From assembly GCA_951406725.2 (NCBI GenBank), contig OX597815.1:126108001-126172000 (forward strand): 64,000 nt of DNA. Direction: 5' to 3'. This document shows positions 1-56,316 of the stretch, piece after piece. Position 1 is the stretch's first letter, and every line of letters begins with the position of its first letter. This stretch comes from Octopus vulgaris. Lineage: Eukaryota. A program made the translations under genes and the position numbers. The notes below the pieces were generated by a model. It saw only the letters and a program-made list of their open reading frames with translations, had not been told where the DNA came from and did not search any database.

Positions 1-1187
1 ATCTGGAAGACCTGGTCTTTTATTTGTCTGTGACGAAAGACACTTCTCTTGTACCGTTCTGACCTCGTCTGGAGAATTCTTATTTTTCCCGTCCAAATAA
101 TTCTGAAGACTACGGAATAAATGATAATCAGATTGGGCAATGTCTGGCAAATATGGTGGGTGAGCATTGTCCCCCATTCAAACTGCTCCATCCTTTGGAA
201 TGTCATCCTCACTGTATGTGGCCGAGCATATTTTGATGGAAGAACACATTGCGTCTTGAAACCAAAAATGTTTTCTTCCCTTCTAGCGCTAACTTAAGCC
301 GCTCACGCTGCTCGCTCTAGATCTGCTTTGCTATTGTTTGGTTTTGGTTTAAAAGTTTAAAGTGGACTAAACCTTTCATATCCTGCCAAGCAGATAACAA
401 CACCTTACTTGGGTGAAGACCTTCTTTAGCCTGGGGTACCGGTTTTTTTCCCTTTCCCTACCCACTGTCTTCGGTGCTTGACATTTTTATAGAGAACCCA
501 TTTCTCGTCACCAGTCGCTATTCGGTCCAGAATGGTTCATTCGTGAGACGGGACAACAAAGAAGGGCACACATTGATTTCTGCAGGCGATTAGACATATG
601 AAGTTTGTGAGGAACACATTGACCCAATTTGCTGACATTTCCGAGAGTACGCAGGTGTGGATGAATGGTTGAACGACCAAATCCAAGCTTCTCTGCTAGT
701 TGCTCAACAGTTACGATGAGATTTTGTTCCAGCAGGATTTGCACAACTTCCTCGTCGAGCGCTGCAGATCTTCCGGGATGAGGCTCGTCTTATAGGCTAT
801 AGTTTCTGTCTCGGAATTTCTGACACTGGCTTTTATTGTCCGATCCCCATATACTGCATTAATATTCCTCACACTTTCTGTTACTTTGTTGTCTTTATTT
901 AACTCATGACTCAAAATATGCCGAATATGCTCCTTTGTCACTTCCATTATCGGACTGCACTCTTCAAAACTGCCACAGTCCAAGTAATGTCTAAAATGAA
1001 GCAGGACCACTTGATTCGAGCATGTAGATGATTTAGATCTCATACAGAAGCAGTTGTTGAAGCTGAAGGTGGCTTTATTTGATAACATTATAGAAAAGAA
1101 GGTTTATTTTTATCCTCATAGCATTTTTGATAAATAAAATTGTTTTTTATAATCATAAATCTGTCCTCAAATATCTTACGCACCCTG
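1..1187 (-). mobile_element. Decayed mariner (DD34D) transposon, runs off the window start; transposase ATG near 947
   Basis: Minus-strand translations give MEVTKEHIRHILSHELNK, LGQCVPHKL (WVPHEL-like), IATGDEKWVLY (~480-525) and HPPYLPDIAQSDYH (YSPDLAPSD-like, ~120-165), with frameshifts. Confidence 0.9.
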
Positions 1188-32974: not shown

Positions 32975-34251
32975 CGAGGGGCGTTCAATAAGTAATGCCC
33001 CCGACCCACTTCCCATAGCAGTAGAGCAACGAAACTTGGCACAGTTATTGGTCTTTTTCTACATAGGAACCACCCAGAGTTACGCATTTCTTCCATTGTT
33101 TGATGCTGCTCTGGAGACCGTTTTTGTAGAAGACCCCAGCTTGGTCCTCCAACCACGACGTGACTTCAGAAATCAAGGCTGCATCATCTGGGAAACGCTT
33201 TCCTTTCAAAAACAACTTCATGATTGGGAAGAGGTGTAAATCAGAGGGTGCAAGGTCAGGAGAGTAGGGGGATGGGGGAGGAGTTAATAGCCGCACGCCT
33301 GTGCTTCTGATCTGGCGACACGCGAGTTGTGGACCGGAGCGTTGTCCTGCAGGAGGTGGATGCCTTTGCTGATCTTGTCCCGCCTCTTGATTTTGATAGC
33401 TTCTCTTAATTTCCTCAAAAGTGAAGCATAATAGGCTCCTGTAATTGTGGTACCATTTGCCAGGAAATCTGTCATCACTACTCCGTCCTGGTCCCAGAAG
33501 ACTGAGCATGGCCTTGCCAGCGGAGGGCTGCACCCTTGCCTTCTTTGGAGGAGGTGAGTCACGGTGCTTCCACTGCATTGACTGGGCTTTGGTCTCTGGA
33601 TCATAGTGATGGACTTAGGTTTCATCCTGTGTAATCAGTCTTTTGAAAAATTTTGACTCATCTTCTTGGCACATCTCCAAATTCATCCTCAAGCACTCGA
33701 TGCGTTCTTGCTTCTGGAAAGGTGTGAGCAGCCTGGGAATCCATCTGGCAGACACCTTTTGCATATGCAAATGGTCATGAATGATAGTTTCCACAGACCC
33801 GGTACTAATCTTGACCTCATGGGCTATTTGGCGAATAGTTATGCGTCGATCTTCCAAAATGGCAGCATCAACTTGACGGACAGATGCCTCATCAATGGCA
33901 GAAGGGGGCGACCAGATCTGGGAGCTGTTTCCACAGAGTTCCGACCATGTTTGAATTTACGAAGCCAGCATTTTACAAGGTCATATGATGGGGCATCATC
34001 ACCATAAGTTACTTTCATTTCATCAAAAGTCTCCCGTGGTGTGCGTCCTTTCAAATACAAAAACCGGATCACTGCTCGACACTCAACAGGCTCCATTTCA
34101 CACTTGACTCAGTTCAAATACCTGTAAATCAGAAACCACAATTAGTTCAGGGCTGTAATCTATAGAGATATAAATAATTGCACATGCAAAATTTCAGCTA
34201 GATCAAACAACTGCAAGTGGGTCAGAGTCATTACTTATTGCACGTCCCTCG
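32975..34251 (-). mobile_element. Full-length mariner element (irritans-like), ~1.28 kb, TA TSD
   Basis: TIRs cgaggggcgttcaataagtaatgcccccgacccact and cgagggacgtgcaataagtaatgactctgacccact, both flanked by TA inside (CATA)n. Confidence 0.95.
33045..34096 (-). pseudogene. Frameshifted mariner DD34D transposase
   Basis: MEPVECRAVIRFL..., WIPRLL, ITQDET, LLQDNAPVH and YSPDLAPSDLHLF split over four ORFs. Confidence 0.93.
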
Positions 34252-38676: not shown

Positions 38677-38814
38677 TGTCTGAACATCTAAACAACTTTA
38701 TTTGTTGCAATGGTACTGATGTAGTGTTCACTATATTGTTAGAGTTATAATTATACATCTACCTATCTCAGTATATACATACAGAAATAAATAAATGTGT
38801 GTGTATGTGTGTGT

Positions 38815-39102
38815 ATAAAACGAAACTCCAACAACTATTCTGCCTATATGTCTGTTCAAACCTTTCAATGCAATGCATGCCAGAATATTTGCAGGTCTAA
38901 CGGAGGCCTCAAAAGACATTTTAAGATCCACAAAGATCCGAACTTATCTGCAGCTCTTGGTGATCCAAATCGGATATGCAATCTATGTGGGTGTCCTTTC
39001 AAAACATTGTCTGGTTTAAAAAGCCACATCAGATGCCATGATGGTTCTAAGGTGTAGGTACATGAGGTGGTCAAACTCTGCATAAGGAGTAGACAACCAC
39101 CA
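38815..39102 (+). mobile_element. RTE-like LINE 3' end with two C2H2 fingers
   Basis: CNACQNICRSNGGLKRHFKIH and CNLCGCPFKTLSGLKSHIRCH, a stop, a short UTR (tggtcaaactc...caaccacca) and then a microsatellite. Confidence 0.65.
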
Positions 39103-51326: not shown

Positions 51327-51920
51327 CATACATTTGTAGTGGATGCGTGGATGTATTAATAAATACATAAGTGTTTTGTAATAAATTAAAGATTTATTTT
51401 CACTACATCAATTTGTAAGCAATGCTACACATCGCTTGTACAAAATGCATATTAAATAGTGGTTGCAAATAATACATATTAAAGGAATGCATAATACATG
51501 ATACACATTAAAGCAGAATATGTTTGATGGTGTGTGTGTGTGTGTGTGTGTAAATCATGCAGGACAGAGTCACCTTTCTGAATATTCTTTCGTCGTCCTC
51601 ATAAATGCGTGGCGTTCTCTTAAGCGTTGGTTCGGGTTCTCTGCAGATACCTATTTCTCCGTTCTATTTATAACATCTCAAATAGCCAGAAAAATAGATA
51701 TACCGCAAGAGTGTTATCGCGTACAGTAGGTCGCTGGTCGTCCTGTTAAACTTCGTCTGACCTGCTCGGGTCAGAGGTCGAAGGGAGACGATCCATCATT
51801 TTTTGTCAGAACAAAGAGATTCTGATTTCGCGCCTTTTTGTGCATTGGTATTTTACGACCAATGATTCTTGGGTCTGATTTCGAATCCAAGCTTCGAGAA
51901 GGAAGTGCTAATTCTTACAC

Positions 51921-52692
51921 ATTTATAAAAATAGGGTAAAGTAAAATAGTTTACTTTACTACACACTGAGCTTTTTAGAAATAGCAGCCAAAAATTTGGC
52001 TATTCCTTCAACTGCAAGAAAAAGTCTCCCAGACAATGCATACTCAGAAATAACTCACATAGGTATAAGGGAAAAATAACGAAAGATCACATCCATATAA
52101 GATACCCGAGGACATATAAGATACCTGTTTCTGGATTCGTGGGTTAAACGCCAACATTTCCTTCATCAGCTCAGAGATTTCTTCTGATTTAGATTTGAAA
52201 GTACTAAGAATCAAACATACCCGTCCGATATATGTAACATCGGACAAACCATGCCAGACCACCAGTACTAGCGAATCCAAAAATACAAATGAGATCTATT
52301 ATTCTCCCTATCCACCCACGTGAGTCAAAGAGTAGTACATTTCTACAGAGGCAAAACTGTAGTTCAAATTCTTGGGGAGAAAGCATTATATTGTCAATAA
52401 AAAAGGGTAGAATTAATTAATTATTAATTAATTCGACCGAGCAGTGTTCGGTATGTAAAAAGACCATTTACGGTATATTTGAAATATTAATTTATAAATA
52501 TAGGGTAAAGTAAAATAATTTACTTTACCACACACCGAGCTTTTTGGAAATAGCAGCCAAAAATTTGGCTATTCCTTCAACTGCAAGAAAAAGTCTCCCA
52601 GACAATGCATACTCAGAAATAACTCACATAGGTATAAGGGAAAAATAACGAAAGATCACATCCATATAAGATACCCGAGGACAGCCTGTTTC
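51921..52692 (-). mobile_element. Head-to-tail partial tandem (569-bp period) HHR-bearing element, PLE pLTR- or retrozyme-like
   Basis: ~190-bp direct repeats at 51921-52114 and 52490-52683; HHR at 52105-52176(-). Confidence 0.75.
52105..52176 (-). ncRNA. Type I hammerhead with an altered stem III
   Basis: ctgag-CUGAUGA-a-gga...tcc-a-GAAA-ca...tg-UC-ctcgg; predicted cleavage after position 52111. Confidence 0.55.
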
Positions 52693-52750
52693 TATTTATT
52701 TGCTTGTTGTTGATACACCAGTCTTCGTCTTTTGTTTTTCTATCAATTTC

Positions 52751-52949: not shown

Positions 52950-53025
52950 TTCGTATTTTCTACTGAAGAGGAAAAAATCCATTATGAGATTATTTCCGAA
53001 ATTGATTCAATATAGAAATAACGAA
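52950..53025 (+). ncRNA. Canonical type I hammerhead ribozyme
   Basis: Stem I tttcta/tagaaa (extended by ttcgt/acgaa), CUGAAGA at 52963-69, stem II ggaaa/tttcc, GAAA at 52998-53001, stem III ttga/tcaa, AUA cleavage after 53012. Confidence 0.8.
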
Positions 53026-53627: not shown

Positions 53628-53812
53628 CATATACATATATGTGTATATATATACGACGGGCTTCTTTCAGTTTCCGTTTACCAAATCCATCACTAGGTTC
53701 TGGTCGGCCCAAGGCTTATACTAGAAAACATCTGCCCAAGGTGCCACGCAGTGGGACTGAACCCGGAGACGTGGTTGGGAAACAAGCTTCTTACCACAGA
53801 GCCACACCTACG
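53237..53812 (-). mobile_element. Family A SINE with a nested family G fragment (53447-53570)
   Basis: Tail cttttacttgtttcagtcattt; body; head gacgggcttctttcag...aagcttcttaccacagagccacacc. Confidence 0.85.
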
Positions 53813-53833
53813 CCTGTCTGTCTGTCTATCTGT

Positions 53834-53902
53834 CTGTCTGTCTGTCTGCCTGTCTACCATAGAACGTACTTACCGATGTACTTATATCTCTCTTCTCAAT
53901 CA

Positions 53903-53964
<62 letters not shown>

Positions 53965-54033
53965 TGATTGAGAAGAGAGATATAAGTACATCGGTAAGTA
54001 CGTTCTATGGTAGACAGGCAGACAGACAGACAG
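53834..54033. repeat. Perfect ~200-bp palindrome centred on (TA)n
   Basis: tgtctaccatagaacgtacttaccgatgtacttatatctctcttctcaatcactctgtg-(ta)n-exact reverse complement. Confidence 0.92.
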
Positions 54034-55159
54034 CCAGATAGACAGACAGACAGACATACATACAGACAGACAGATAGATAGATAGATAGATTGATAGATA
54101 GATAGATAGTGTAGCATACCAGTGCTGTTAAAAATGATATAAAATTGATGTCTTGTTAAATCCTTGTTATTAGATTTTTTTTCTGAAACGGTACATTTAA
54201 AATATACTGTTGTAAATTGCAAAATAAAGTATGAGGAATATTTGTGCCGTTAGTTATCCATCGACTGCCATTTAACTTTTACACATATCCATATGTGTAA
54301 ATATATAAATATATAAATACGTGTAATATTTACTTACATATACACATATCTACAAACATACATACTTATCTAGGTATGTATATGTATAATATATAAGCAT
54401 ACTAACGCAGGCGACCTTAAATCTTTAGTACAAATCTTGATAAAATTTGAATTGACATTTATATCTACGTTCGTGTTGCGAACTAATTCTTCGGATACAG
54501 AACGGAAAGATTTTTAATTGACCATGGCATTATTTTATTTACTAAAAAGCACTTCACAAGCACTTCCAAAACGCAGAGAGAGAGAGAGGGAGGCAGAGAA
54601 AGAAGCACATAAGGAAATATGTGAACCAGAGAGGGAGTCATGTTGTAAACTTTACTACGGACTCCTGCATTTCCTTCTATCCGGCCCGTTCCTTATTTAA
54701 ACTTATCTTAAACTTTCCACTGTCTACTCGCTCTCTCTCTTTCCCTTTCTCTCTGTCTGTCTGTTTCTCTCTTTCACTTTCTCTTTCGCTGTCTTTCTCT
54801 CTCTCTCTCTCCCTCTCTCTCTCTCCCCCCTCTCTCTCTCACACGAGCGCCCGCGCCCGGACACACTTAAAAAAACCCATTTATTTTATTCTCCATTCTT
54901 ACTCACTGTGAGAATTGGAATATAATTCTAATTCTCCTAGTTTTTACGCAGTATCTCTCACGAGTTTTTCCTTGTTATAGTTGCTGTTGTTGTTGTGCTT
55001 CTTCTTCTTCTCCTTCTTCTTCTTCTTCTTCTTCTTCTTCTTCTTCTTCCTCGTTCTGTCTCTTTCTTATTATTCTGCAGGACGCTACGTTCTCTCATTC
55101 TTATTCTCTCTTTCTTCTTCTCCCCTCCCTCCCCCTCTCTGTATATATATATATATGTA

Positions 55160-55198
<39 letters not shown>

Positions 55199-55211
55199 AT
55201 ATATAAGCATA

Positions 55212-55255
<44 letters not shown>

Positions 55256-55443
55256 TAGTTGAATGAATTATCCTAGTATGGATAATTCGGTTAACCGATA
55301 CCCGGGTAGCAAATTCACTTCAGAAAACACGGTTGAAGCTACATGCCAAGGGCAGAGATCACGTGCTTTCGTGTGGAAATTTGTGTGTTTTTTTTTTACT
55401 ATAAATAAATGAAAGAATGGAGTTGAACGACGATTTAACAAAA

Positions 55444-55542
55444 TTCCTTTATTCTCGACATATGTTTCGAAGACTGCATATTCCTAATTCCGAAGGAATA
55501 AAGGGTGCATTATGCCGCCTTCTCATCAGGAAAGACAAGGAA
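55444..55542 (-). ncRNA. Canonical type I hammerhead ribozyme, minus polarity
   Basis: Stem I ttcctt..tttc/gaga..aaggaa, CUGAUGA (plus 55523-29), stem II gaaggc/gtcttc plus gcata/tatgc, GAAA, palindromic stem III catatg, GUC (C17 = 55457). Confidence 0.85.
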
Positions 55543-55617
55543 CTTTTGTCAGCATCATGACGAACAAAATCTTTTAGATGACTGTCCACACGGAGTCCAT
55601 AGTGATAATGTGTGGGC

Positions 55618-55917
55618 ATATGCTCTAAATTTTCAAAATCCACCCCCACCGCACGATCTTCTCAGCAGCAAATATAAACTGCTGATTTAATTTCAAAATT
55701 AGACAAAAAATCATTAATTAATAAATATAAGGGTAGCAAAAAATTCTAGAAAAAATTCTCCGGTACTGCTTCTTGTCTCTTTTTTCTAGAATTTTTTGCT
55801 ACCCTTATATTTATTAATTAATGATTTTTTGGCTAATTTTGAAATTAAATCAGCAGTTTATATTTACTGCTGAGAAGATCGTGCGGTGGCGGTGGATTTT
55901 GAAAATTTAGAGCATAT
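55618..55917. repeat. 138-bp inverted repeat with a 24-nt spacer
   Basis: Arms 55618-55755 and 55780-55917; about 3 mismatches by eye. Confidence 0.92.
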
Positions 55918-55969
55918 AGACTCGAGGCGTCTTTGCCGTCGCCTCGTGGACATATACTTGTCCTAGGCT

Positions 55970-56063
55970 TCTCTGCTGATGAGACACGCCAGTTGTAAAT
56001 AAATTTAATTTAATTTAATTAATTTGTTTACAAAGTTTGTCGAAACTATGCATAGTCCAGAGA
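55970..56063 (+). ncRNA. Canonical type I hammerhead ribozyme, plus polarity
   Basis: Stem I tctctg/cagaga, CUGAUGA at 55976-82, stem II gaca/tgtc with a long AU hairpin (tgtaaataaatt/aatttgtttaca), GAAA at 56042-45, palindromic stem III ctatgcatag, GUC cleavage after 56057. Confidence 0.88.
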
Positions 56064-56268
56064 TGAAAAGAGTAAATGTTTTTATTTCTTTTTCAATTTC
56101 AGAATTACAACTGTTTAGCGGTTTGAATTTGGCTGCTCTTTCTAGTGAGTCAATGGCCTATCAGGGCCATTCCTTATATTGTTGAATGTATATTATATAG
56201 TATTTGACTATCTTTTCTTTCTCACTAAACCGCTAGTAGCGGAGAATTTTTTGCTACCATTATATTTA

Positions 56269-56316
<48 letters not shown>

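What the first reader, a model, noticed from the sequence alone, without database searches (positions are those of the whole stretch)
55444..56273. Two different canonical hammerheads on opposite strands flanking a long inverted repeat (ambisense, viroid/retrozyme-like cassette)
Seen: a minus-strand HHR (55444-55542) and a plus-strand HHR (55970-56063), each with intact CUGAUGA, GAAA and GUC and a palindromic stem III. They point outward from a 138-bp near-perfect inverted repeat. The two HHRs differ in sequence, so the second is not simply part of the inverted duplication. The inner arm end (agaattttttgctacc.ttatatttattaat) recurs as a direct repeat at 56243-56273, giving a unit of about 455 nt with one HHR. 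No meaningful ORF is present. Established: palindromic-stem-III type I HHRs occur in Penelope-like elements and animal retrozymes, and HHRs in both polarities plus a rod-like fold characterise viroid-like circular RNAs. Inference: either a non-coding self-cleaving RNA element active in both polarities, or an inverted chimera of two related PLE/retrozyme termini.
Basis: partly seen in the sequence, partly recalled or inferred. Interest (0 to 1): 0.85.

Follow-up and report, generated by a model that had tools for sequence, protein, structure and literature searches.

The report
Two retroelement ends joined head-to-head
The two hammerhead ribozyme motifs are real, but each belongs to its own repeat family (the end of a Penelope-like retrotransposon and a small non-coding repeat), and their join occurs once in this genome, so the stretch is likely an ordinary pair of neighbouring insertions in a TA microsatellite, not a viroid-like RNA.

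Summary
In detail: both type I hammerheads, the 138-bp inverted repeat and the 31-nt direct repeat are where stated.

The cassette reading fails. [quoted passage not shown] The right half (family A, 197 matches) is a roughly 460-nt tandem, retrozyme-like unit. The A|B junction is found once in G000. Contigs from three public runs cross it, so it is not a misassembly.

Outward-facing ribozymes on opposite strands are routine here: 21 B pairs and 7 A pairs among the first 100 listed matches of each. They arise because insertions carry an inverted arm, as published for Penelope-like elements. Same-family head-to-head insertions never showed two 'long' ends (0 of 25). This locus does, which favours two separate insertions. 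One cut per strand cannot release a unit-length circle.

The scan holds no look-alike stretch; one note describes a similar parasite in another genome. Ordinary; interest low.

The parts
55141..55253 (.). left (TA)n tract, target abutting the 3' end of family B
   Evidence: sequence; B 3' ends are followed by (TA)>=4 in 28 of 29 loci
55255..55614 (-). family B: 5'-truncated pseudo-LTR end of a Penelope-like element (3' UTR end, hammerhead, then the start of the next unit's 5' UTR as a 'long' end)
   Evidence: 40 scored copies 95-98% identical; upstream GIY-YIG-type and RT coding sequence in longer copies; the same tail lies 55 nt before the ORF start in L099
55451..55535 (-). type I hammerhead of family B; predicted cut after 55457
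   Evidence: intact core in 28 of 29 B loci
55610..55618 (+). 9-nt word matching family B's own sense strand, read as a miniature inverted arm of the B insertion (inferred)
   Evidence: the word lies in the sense strand of 23 of 29 B loci; only 9 nt, so chance is not excluded
55618..55762 (-). inverted arm of the family A insertion (unit positions 1-138 plus the last few bases of the preceding unit); outer end at an ATAT word; no ribozyme
   Evidence: inverted own-family arms in 20 of 28 A loci
55763..55779 (.). 17-nt filler between the two arms
   Evidence: no 11-mer match elsewhere in the window or in the loci held at that time
55780..56273 (+). family A: one roughly 460-nt non-coding tandem unit plus tail ('long' end); retrozyme-like
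   Evidence: tandem ribozyme spacings of 456-470 nt in six pairs
55970..56063 (+). type I hammerhead of family A; predicted cut after 56057
   Evidence: stem II pair is A-T in 24, G-C in 24 and mismatched in 3 of 51 copies
   Evidence: present at the 3' end of most A copies
56274..56312 (.). right (TA)n tract, target abutting the 3' end of family A
   Evidence: A 3' ends are followed by (TA)>=4 in 26 of 28 loci

Best explanation
The stretch holds two different repeat-family copies joined head to head between (TA)n tracts, and they likely arose as two separate Penelope-type insertions into the same microsatellite. Shown: the left copy is the ribozyme-bearing pseudo-LTR end of a protein-coding Penelope-like family (B); the right copy is a roughly 460-nt non-coding tandem unit with its own ribozyme (A) plus an inverted partial copy of itself, which makes the inverted repeat. 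Inferred: the element's endonuclease cuts (TA)n; both target ends prime reverse transcription at TA-like words in a tandem RNA, one at the family's 'long' end and one at an internal site; the two cDNAs join at their truncated 5' ends. A is likely mobilised in trans by a Penelope-like RT. Each hammerhead would serve its own family's tandem precursor, likely as a dimer through the palindromic stem III. The composite itself is predicted to be inert: a read-through transcript would be cut at most once per strand.
For: The junction 62-mer has 1 candidate in G000, the window itself; a 146-nt junction query gave only half-matches elsewhere among 40 scored of 1,067 candidates. No A copy in any B locus and no adjoining B copy in any A locus, among 57 identity-ranked places and 60 pattern-picked loci, duplicates and the window included. 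On C1 the closest listed A and B ribozymes lie 33.7 kb apart. B continues upstream into RT and GIY-YIG-type coding sequence. Both families end in (TA)n and carry inverted own-family arms. Among 25 same-family head-to-head loci: 19 long+short, 5 long+other, 1 short+other, 0 long+long. The window is long(B)+long(A), and A has its own inverted arm while B has a possible miniature one. Craig et al. (PMC8557442, passages) describe partial tandems, inverted 5'-truncated copies, a tail on one end only and (TA)n targets.
Against: No (TA)n is left between B and the A arm beyond A's own ATAT. Both halves have the same low count of private changes (A 4 of 494, B 2 of 356, Fisher p = 1.0), which fits one event as well as two close ones. 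The chance expectation of A and B sharing one TA tract is only 0.14-0.9 per genome, before asking for head-to-head contact (rough, TA-tract density taken from this window alone). B's miniature arm is 9 nt. No parent PLE was found for A. No cleavage or expression was tested. Pfam and PDB sequence searches did not recognise the ORF; its identity rests on motifs read against PMC8557442 and on ESM Atlas neighbours.
Confidence: 0.72

Rival explanations
1. One integration event used two RNAs. The left target end was primed on B RNA and the right end on A RNA, with a template jump from B to A near the junction. Still a one-off and inert, but it would be physical evidence that the B-type enzyme carries retrozyme A.
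For: No TA spacer at the junction; equal private-change counts; low chance expectation for independent co-insertion; the overall shape equals the standard two-ended insertion of both families.
Against: Two long ends, never seen in 25 same-family loci (0.75^25 = 0.0008 if the two ends were independent and equally likely long or short). A already has its own second arm. No other mixed A-B join was found in the loci held.
Confidence: 0.18
2. The window form is a later rearrangement of an older complex locus. The second form seen in public contigs (A sequence joined at 55572 in place of the rest of B) could be ancestral, with B's ribozyme part added afterwards by insertion or conversion through the shared 43 nt.
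For: Runs X1 (depth 75.2) and X3 (depth 57) hold a joint 55572 to 55895 on opposite strands with 7 letters that fit both sides; X8 holds the window form; X3's junction contig has depth 130.6.
Against: The second form can equally be derived (template switch across the palindrome, or a new A insertion) or lie at another locus; contigs of 75-146 nt cannot place it. It is absent from G000.
Confidence: 0.07
3. A functional ambisense, viroid-like circular RNA or cassette that self-cleaves in both polarities.
For: Both cores are intact and fold as predicted; the inverted repeat would form a long hairpin; a contig of one run guessed to be RNA crosses the junction at depth 5.4 (RNA status is a guess).
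Against: Single copy; one ribozyme per strand, facing outward, with no terminal redundancy of the whole, so no unit-length monomer can be released. The A unit has no ribozyme on its minus strand and folds as a branched, not rod-like, circle (65% paired). Opposite-strand pairs are routine by-products of insertion. Some runs hold a form in which A sequence replaces the B ribozyme side at 55572.
Confidence: 0.02
4. Assembly artefact.
For: Palindromes and (TA)n tracts are hard to assemble (general knowledge; also noted for PLE insertions in PMC8557442).
Against: Contigs cross the B|A junction in X1 (55572-55652), X3 (55573-55644, no differences) and X8 (55555-55644), three studies. Only X1's has 31 or more letters on both sides; X3's and X8's have about 29 on the right. 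The arms differ at 3 positions. No listed contig spans the spacer or the whole stretch.
Confidence: 0.01

Closest known systems
Hydra-clade Penelope-like elements (Craig et al. 2021, PMC8557442; passages read)
   Same: [quoted passage not shown]
   Different: The unit of the related young family is 3.6 kb against 'generally <3 kb'; RW is present but not RWK; no CxCX5C linker seen; long Asn/Ser-rich linker; the long and short ends differ by about 145 nt rather than a 30-40 nt tail. No tree was built.
Animal non-LTR retrozymes (Cervera and de la Pena 2020, PMC7229834, passages; Li et al. 2026, bioRxiv 10.64898/2026.07.22.740005, parts 1-3 of 5 read)
   Same: Family A is a non-coding, low-GC, head-to-tail unit with one type I hammerhead per unit, found as monomers and dimers.
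   Different: The unit of 456-470 nt lies just above the 150-450 bp range quoted; stem II is long; no long arrays among the 100 listed matches; no parent PLE pseudo-LTR found; circular RNA not shown.
PLE hammerheads with a palindromic helix III (Cervera and de la Pena 2014, PMC4209133; passages read)
   Same: Type I topology, palindromic helix III and predicted dimer dependence.
   Different: Helix III words are longer here (12 and 8 nt) and helix II carries 53-59 nt. Activity untested; that paper reports low in vitro activity for metazoan PLE hammerheads.
Viroid-like circular RNAs with ribozymes in both polarities (search listing and abstract starts only)
   Same: One hammerhead on each strand within about 600 nt; a long hairpin is possible.
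   Different: Single genomic copy made of two repeat families; no terminal redundancy; no unit-length release; the fold of the only tandem unit is branched.
Twin priming of L1 (recalled; search listing only)
   Same: An inverted 5' segment is primed from the second target end at a short internal homology.
   Different: Here the arms often overlap the direct copy, making inverted repeats, and end at fixed TA-like sites rather than near a poly(A).

Membership tests
Viroid-like ambisense circular RNA | Ribozymes of both polarities on one repeating unit that can be cut to unit length | tested here: not met
   One ribozyme per strand, from two families; the composite has no terminal redundancy; the A unit has none on its minus strand
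Viroid-like ambisense circular RNA | Unit propagates as a whole | tested here: not met
   Junction found once in G000
Viroid-like ambisense circular RNA | Rod-like fold of the unit | tested here: not met
   Circular fold of the 455-nt A unit is multibranched, 65% paired, -121.8 against a control of -92.8 +/- 8.8 kcal/mol; the long hairpin is the A inversion
Viroid-like ambisense circular RNA | Circular RNA of both polarities in cells | not testable with these tools
   Only contigs available; no listed holder is on record as RNA
EN+ Penelope-like element (parent of family B) | Single ORF with RT and GIY-YIG endonuclease | tested here: met
   [quoted passage not shown] Pfam and PDB gave no hit, so this rests on motifs and the Atlas
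EN+ Penelope-like element (parent of family B) | Pseudo-LTR with hammerhead; partial tandem and inverted insertions | tested here: met
   B's tail lies upstream of the ORF start in L099; inverted arms in 12 of 29 loci; a related family forms 3,624-nt tandems
Hydra clade | DKT motif; CxxC and CxH around conserved E and N; (TA)n target | tested here: met
   Read in the ORFs against the description; TA target in 28 of 29 loci
Hydra clade | RWK motif and CxCX5C linker | tested here: not met
   RW followed by L; no such linker seen in the ORFs. Filed as Hydra-like, not as a member
Hydra clade | Placement in the RT tree | not tested
   No reference set was held
Animal non-LTR retrozyme (family A) | Short non-coding tandem unit with a type I hammerhead in each unit | tested here: met
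   Two intact cores in tandem in 2 of 28 loci; six same-strand pairs 456-470 nt apart among 100 listed matches; no ORF
Animal non-LTR retrozyme (family A) | Derivation from a PLE pseudo-LTR | tested here: inconclusive
   PLE-type ends and inversions, but no A copy held continues into a PLE ORF
Animal non-LTR retrozyme (family A) | Self-cleavage and circular RNA | not testable with these tools
   Needs bench work or raw stranded reads

The most novel reading that the evidence does not exclude
The locus is a single integration event in which the two ends of one cut (TA)n target were primed on two different RNAs, a Penelope-like mRNA and a retrozyme RNA. That would be a fossil showing directly that a Hydra-like Penelope enzyme copies retrozyme RNA in trans and can switch between them. 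The fixed pairing of one long and one short end seen here would be a usable clue to the unsolved Penelope integration mechanism.
Probability: 0.18. Interest if true: 0.45.

Novelty: new member of a known kind. Interest (0 to 1): 0.17.

Why it matters
As a cassette it does not matter: it is a single composite of two repeats. It does carry a warning for motif scans. In genomes with Penelope-like elements, opposite-strand hammerheads facing outward around an inverted repeat are common by-products (42 of the first 100 listed B matches lie in such pairs) and mimic the viroid-like signature. The two families themselves may be undescribed; my searches for hammerhead+Penelope+octopus and retrozyme+cephalopod returned no paper on them, but Repbase and subscription journals were not searched. 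The young, intact, tandem relative (L097/L098) and retrozyme A would make a practical pair for testing trans-mobilisation.

Tried and rejected
Rfam: no hammerhead in the 12 kb scan, only sub-threshold hits in narrow scans; the miRNA hits reflect the hairpin and the (TA)n tracts.

Pfam and PDB searches of the PLE ORF gave nothing useful.

A conserved in-frame TAA in 4 of 4 long B copies first suggested recoding. It was rejected: among 30 RT hits the codon was AAA 20, TAA 5, AAG 3, TTA 2, so it is a nonsense allele of one sub-lineage.

Parent of A: PLE ORF pieces near A copies (L111, L019, L022) are separated from A by (TA)n and unrelated DNA; the 1,526-nt repeat at L127-L129 is a local duplication with a satellite.

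Expression: no RNA holder listed, which is no evidence either way.

Script faults: the core classifier for B was faulty (0 of 41) and was redone; end typing for A mislabelled tail matches and was corrected. Duplicate loci were dropped before counts: L018; L115, L128, L136, L149, L156, L162, L166, L172 and the window's own L139. In one search, 16 of 26 A loci and 10 of 25 B loci were single-direction and are not among the 25 head-to-head loci.

The candidate counts 5,472 and 3,409 are not copy numbers; exact-word counts were used instead.

No host-gene context was established: 87 open frames in the window gave mariner-type transposase fragments and one zinc-finger frame near 38.8 kb, and nothing near the feature. 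Supplements of PMC8557442 (family lists) were not opened and may already hold these families.

Full report
OBSERVATION. A structural scan finds the plus hammerhead (core at 55976, cut after 56057) and the minus hammerhead (core at 55529, cut after 55457), plus a third at 52963-53012, against 0.02 expected per resampled window. Both fold with stems I and II formed and stem III open. Their stem III words are self-complementary and pair between two molecules at -16.1 and -7.2 kcal/mol, the layout described as dimer-dependent in PMC4209133 (passages). Rfam models score them below threshold, probably because of the long stem II (inference). The inverted repeat (138 nt, 3 mismatches) and the 31-nt direct repeat are confirmed. 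The whole lies between two (TA)n tracts.

TWO FAMILIES. The window is C2:126,108,001-126,172,000 of a 2.8 Gb assembly; that this is an octopus-like animal is my guess from size and repeat content, not a tool result. A search with the whole feature returned, besides the window, only half-matches. The right half, family A, has 197 exact matches to a 22-nt ribozyme word; the left half, family B, has 1,337 to a 23-nt word; reversed controls gave 0. A and B share no significant similarity. The junction is unique in G000: 1 candidate for a 62-mer across it, and only half-matches for a 146-mer. No adjoining A-B pair was seen in 57 identity-ranked places (L026 has two short, 75-76% B-like fragments 170 nt and 1 kb from A) or in 60 pattern-picked loci.

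FAMILY B. Longer B copies continue upstream through a 3' UTR into a GIY-YIG-type domain and an RT. The RT piece has 6,882 candidates in the genome. Fetched relatives show open frames of 741-934 aa followed by B-like hammerheads, and one young family stands in 3,624-nt head-to-tail units 99.9% alike. In L099 the last 130 nt of B lie just upstream of the ORF, 55 nt before the ATG, so B is a pseudo-LTR: the end of one unit and the start of the next. The DKT, CxxC and CxH motifs and the (TA)n target match the Hydra clade as described in PMC8557442 (passages); RWK and the CxCX5C linker do not, so I call it Hydra-like. Pfam and PDB did not recognise the ORF; the Atlas places its middle part beside RT and HTH_animal clusters at 0.93-0.96.

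FAMILY A. A copies are monomers, partial tandems and dimers of a 456-470 nt unit. A stem II pair is A-T in 24 and G-C in 24 of 51 copies, with 3 mismatched; this may be one change inherited by two sub-lineages, so it is modest evidence for selection. No copy held runs into a PLE ORF. This fits animal non-LTR retrozymes (PMC7229834, passages; bioRxiv 10.64898/2026.07.22.740005, parts 1-3 of 5), which that preprint argues are non-autonomous PLE derivatives; there only 1 of 9 tested dimers cleaved.

WHY TWO POLARITIES. 3' ends abut (TA)n in 26 of 28 A and 28 of 29 B loci; an inverted own-family arm stands upstream in 20 of 28 and 12 of 29; intact cores on both strands occur in 3 of 28 and 10 of 29. 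Among the first 100 listed exact matches, 7 A pairs and 21 B pairs face outward within 4 kb, and 1 B pair faces inward. Craig et al. describe this inverted, tailed architecture for PLEs. Ribozymes in both polarities around an inverted repeat are therefore the ordinary footprint of these insertions. Arms end at TA-like words inside the element (A position 420, B position 221), which suggests priming by both target ends (inference).

ONE EVENT OR TWO. Each family has a long and a short preferred end. In 25 same-family head-to-head loci picked by pattern there were 19 long+short, 5 long+other, 1 short+other and no long+long. The window has B-long and A-long. A has its own second arm, ending at an ATAT word, and B has a possible 9-nt one. 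I therefore prefer two insertions (0.72). Against this: no TA is left between them, the private-change counts are alike (4 of 494 and 2 of 356), and chance sharing of one tract is expected 0.14-0.9 times per genome (rough). A single two-RNA event stays open (0.18). The order of the two insertions cannot be told.

REALITY AND VARIATION. Contigs from X1, X3 and X8 (three studies, two organism labels) cross the junction; only X1's meets the 31-letter rule on both sides. X1 and X3 also hold a second form in which A sequence from 55895 onward, on the opposite strand, is joined at 55572 through 7 shared letters, in place of the rest of B. It is not in G000. The simplest reading is two alleles of a rearranging palindromic locus (inference); a second locus is not excluded. 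The contigs give no evidence on expression.

THE VIROID-LIKE READING. One outward-facing ribozyme per strand and no terminal redundancy cannot yield a unit-length RNA. The only tandem unit, A, has no minus-strand ribozyme and folds as a branched circle. The composite does not propagate as a unit. I put this reading at 0.02.

VERDICT. Real motifs, two probably undescribed members of known kinds, joined once. Paper searches for these families and for mixed twin-primed PLE insertions (listing only) found nothing specific; Repbase, supplements and subscription journals were not seen. The scan's own index had no look-alike and one related note from another genome. Interest 0.17.

Noticed in passing
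window 52963-53012 (+): A third hammerhead-like motif (CUGAAGA core, GAAA, AUA triplet; stems 6/5/4), unlike A and B; probably the end of another PLE-type family.
   Followed up: no
window about 51900-52720 (-): A 569-nt tandem unit that shares the tail motif (28 nt, 89%) and a 17-nt word with family A and carries a damaged hammerhead-like motif; likely a sister retrozyme-like family.
   Followed up: partly
window 53809-54058: Near-perfect palindrome with 125-nt arms centred on a (TA)n tract, 98% complementary; foldback at a microsatellite or an assembly effect.
   Followed up: no
L097/L098 = G000:C1:119,513,000-119,528,999: Young head-to-tail array of a 3,624-nt PLE with an 899-aa open frame, units 99.9% alike, its own hammerhead, and an inverted 946-nt arm; several other places show 899-aa open frames at the same score. 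Probably a recently active family.
   Followed up: partly
L062-L065; L067-L096: A sub-lineage of family B shares one premature TAA in the RT region (4 of 4 long copies, 5 of 30 RT hits), so it was likely amplified in trans.
   Followed up: partly
25 loci among L114-L173: Head-to-head insertions pair one long end with one short or other end; the two preferred ends differ by about 74 nt in A and 145 nt in B, more than the 30-40 nt tail in print.
   Followed up: partly
window 55572 and 55895 (contigs of X1, X3): A second form of the junction region with A sequence replacing most of B; allele or separate locus unresolved.
   Followed up: partly
L057, L080, L095: Further hammerheads of other families near unrelated hits, so the genome holds several more ribozyme-bearing repeat families.
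   Followed up: no
window 511-1103, 33048-34108, 38791-39054: Mariner-type transposase fragments (HTH_48, Transposase_1) and a C2H2 zinc-finger frame.
   Followed up: no
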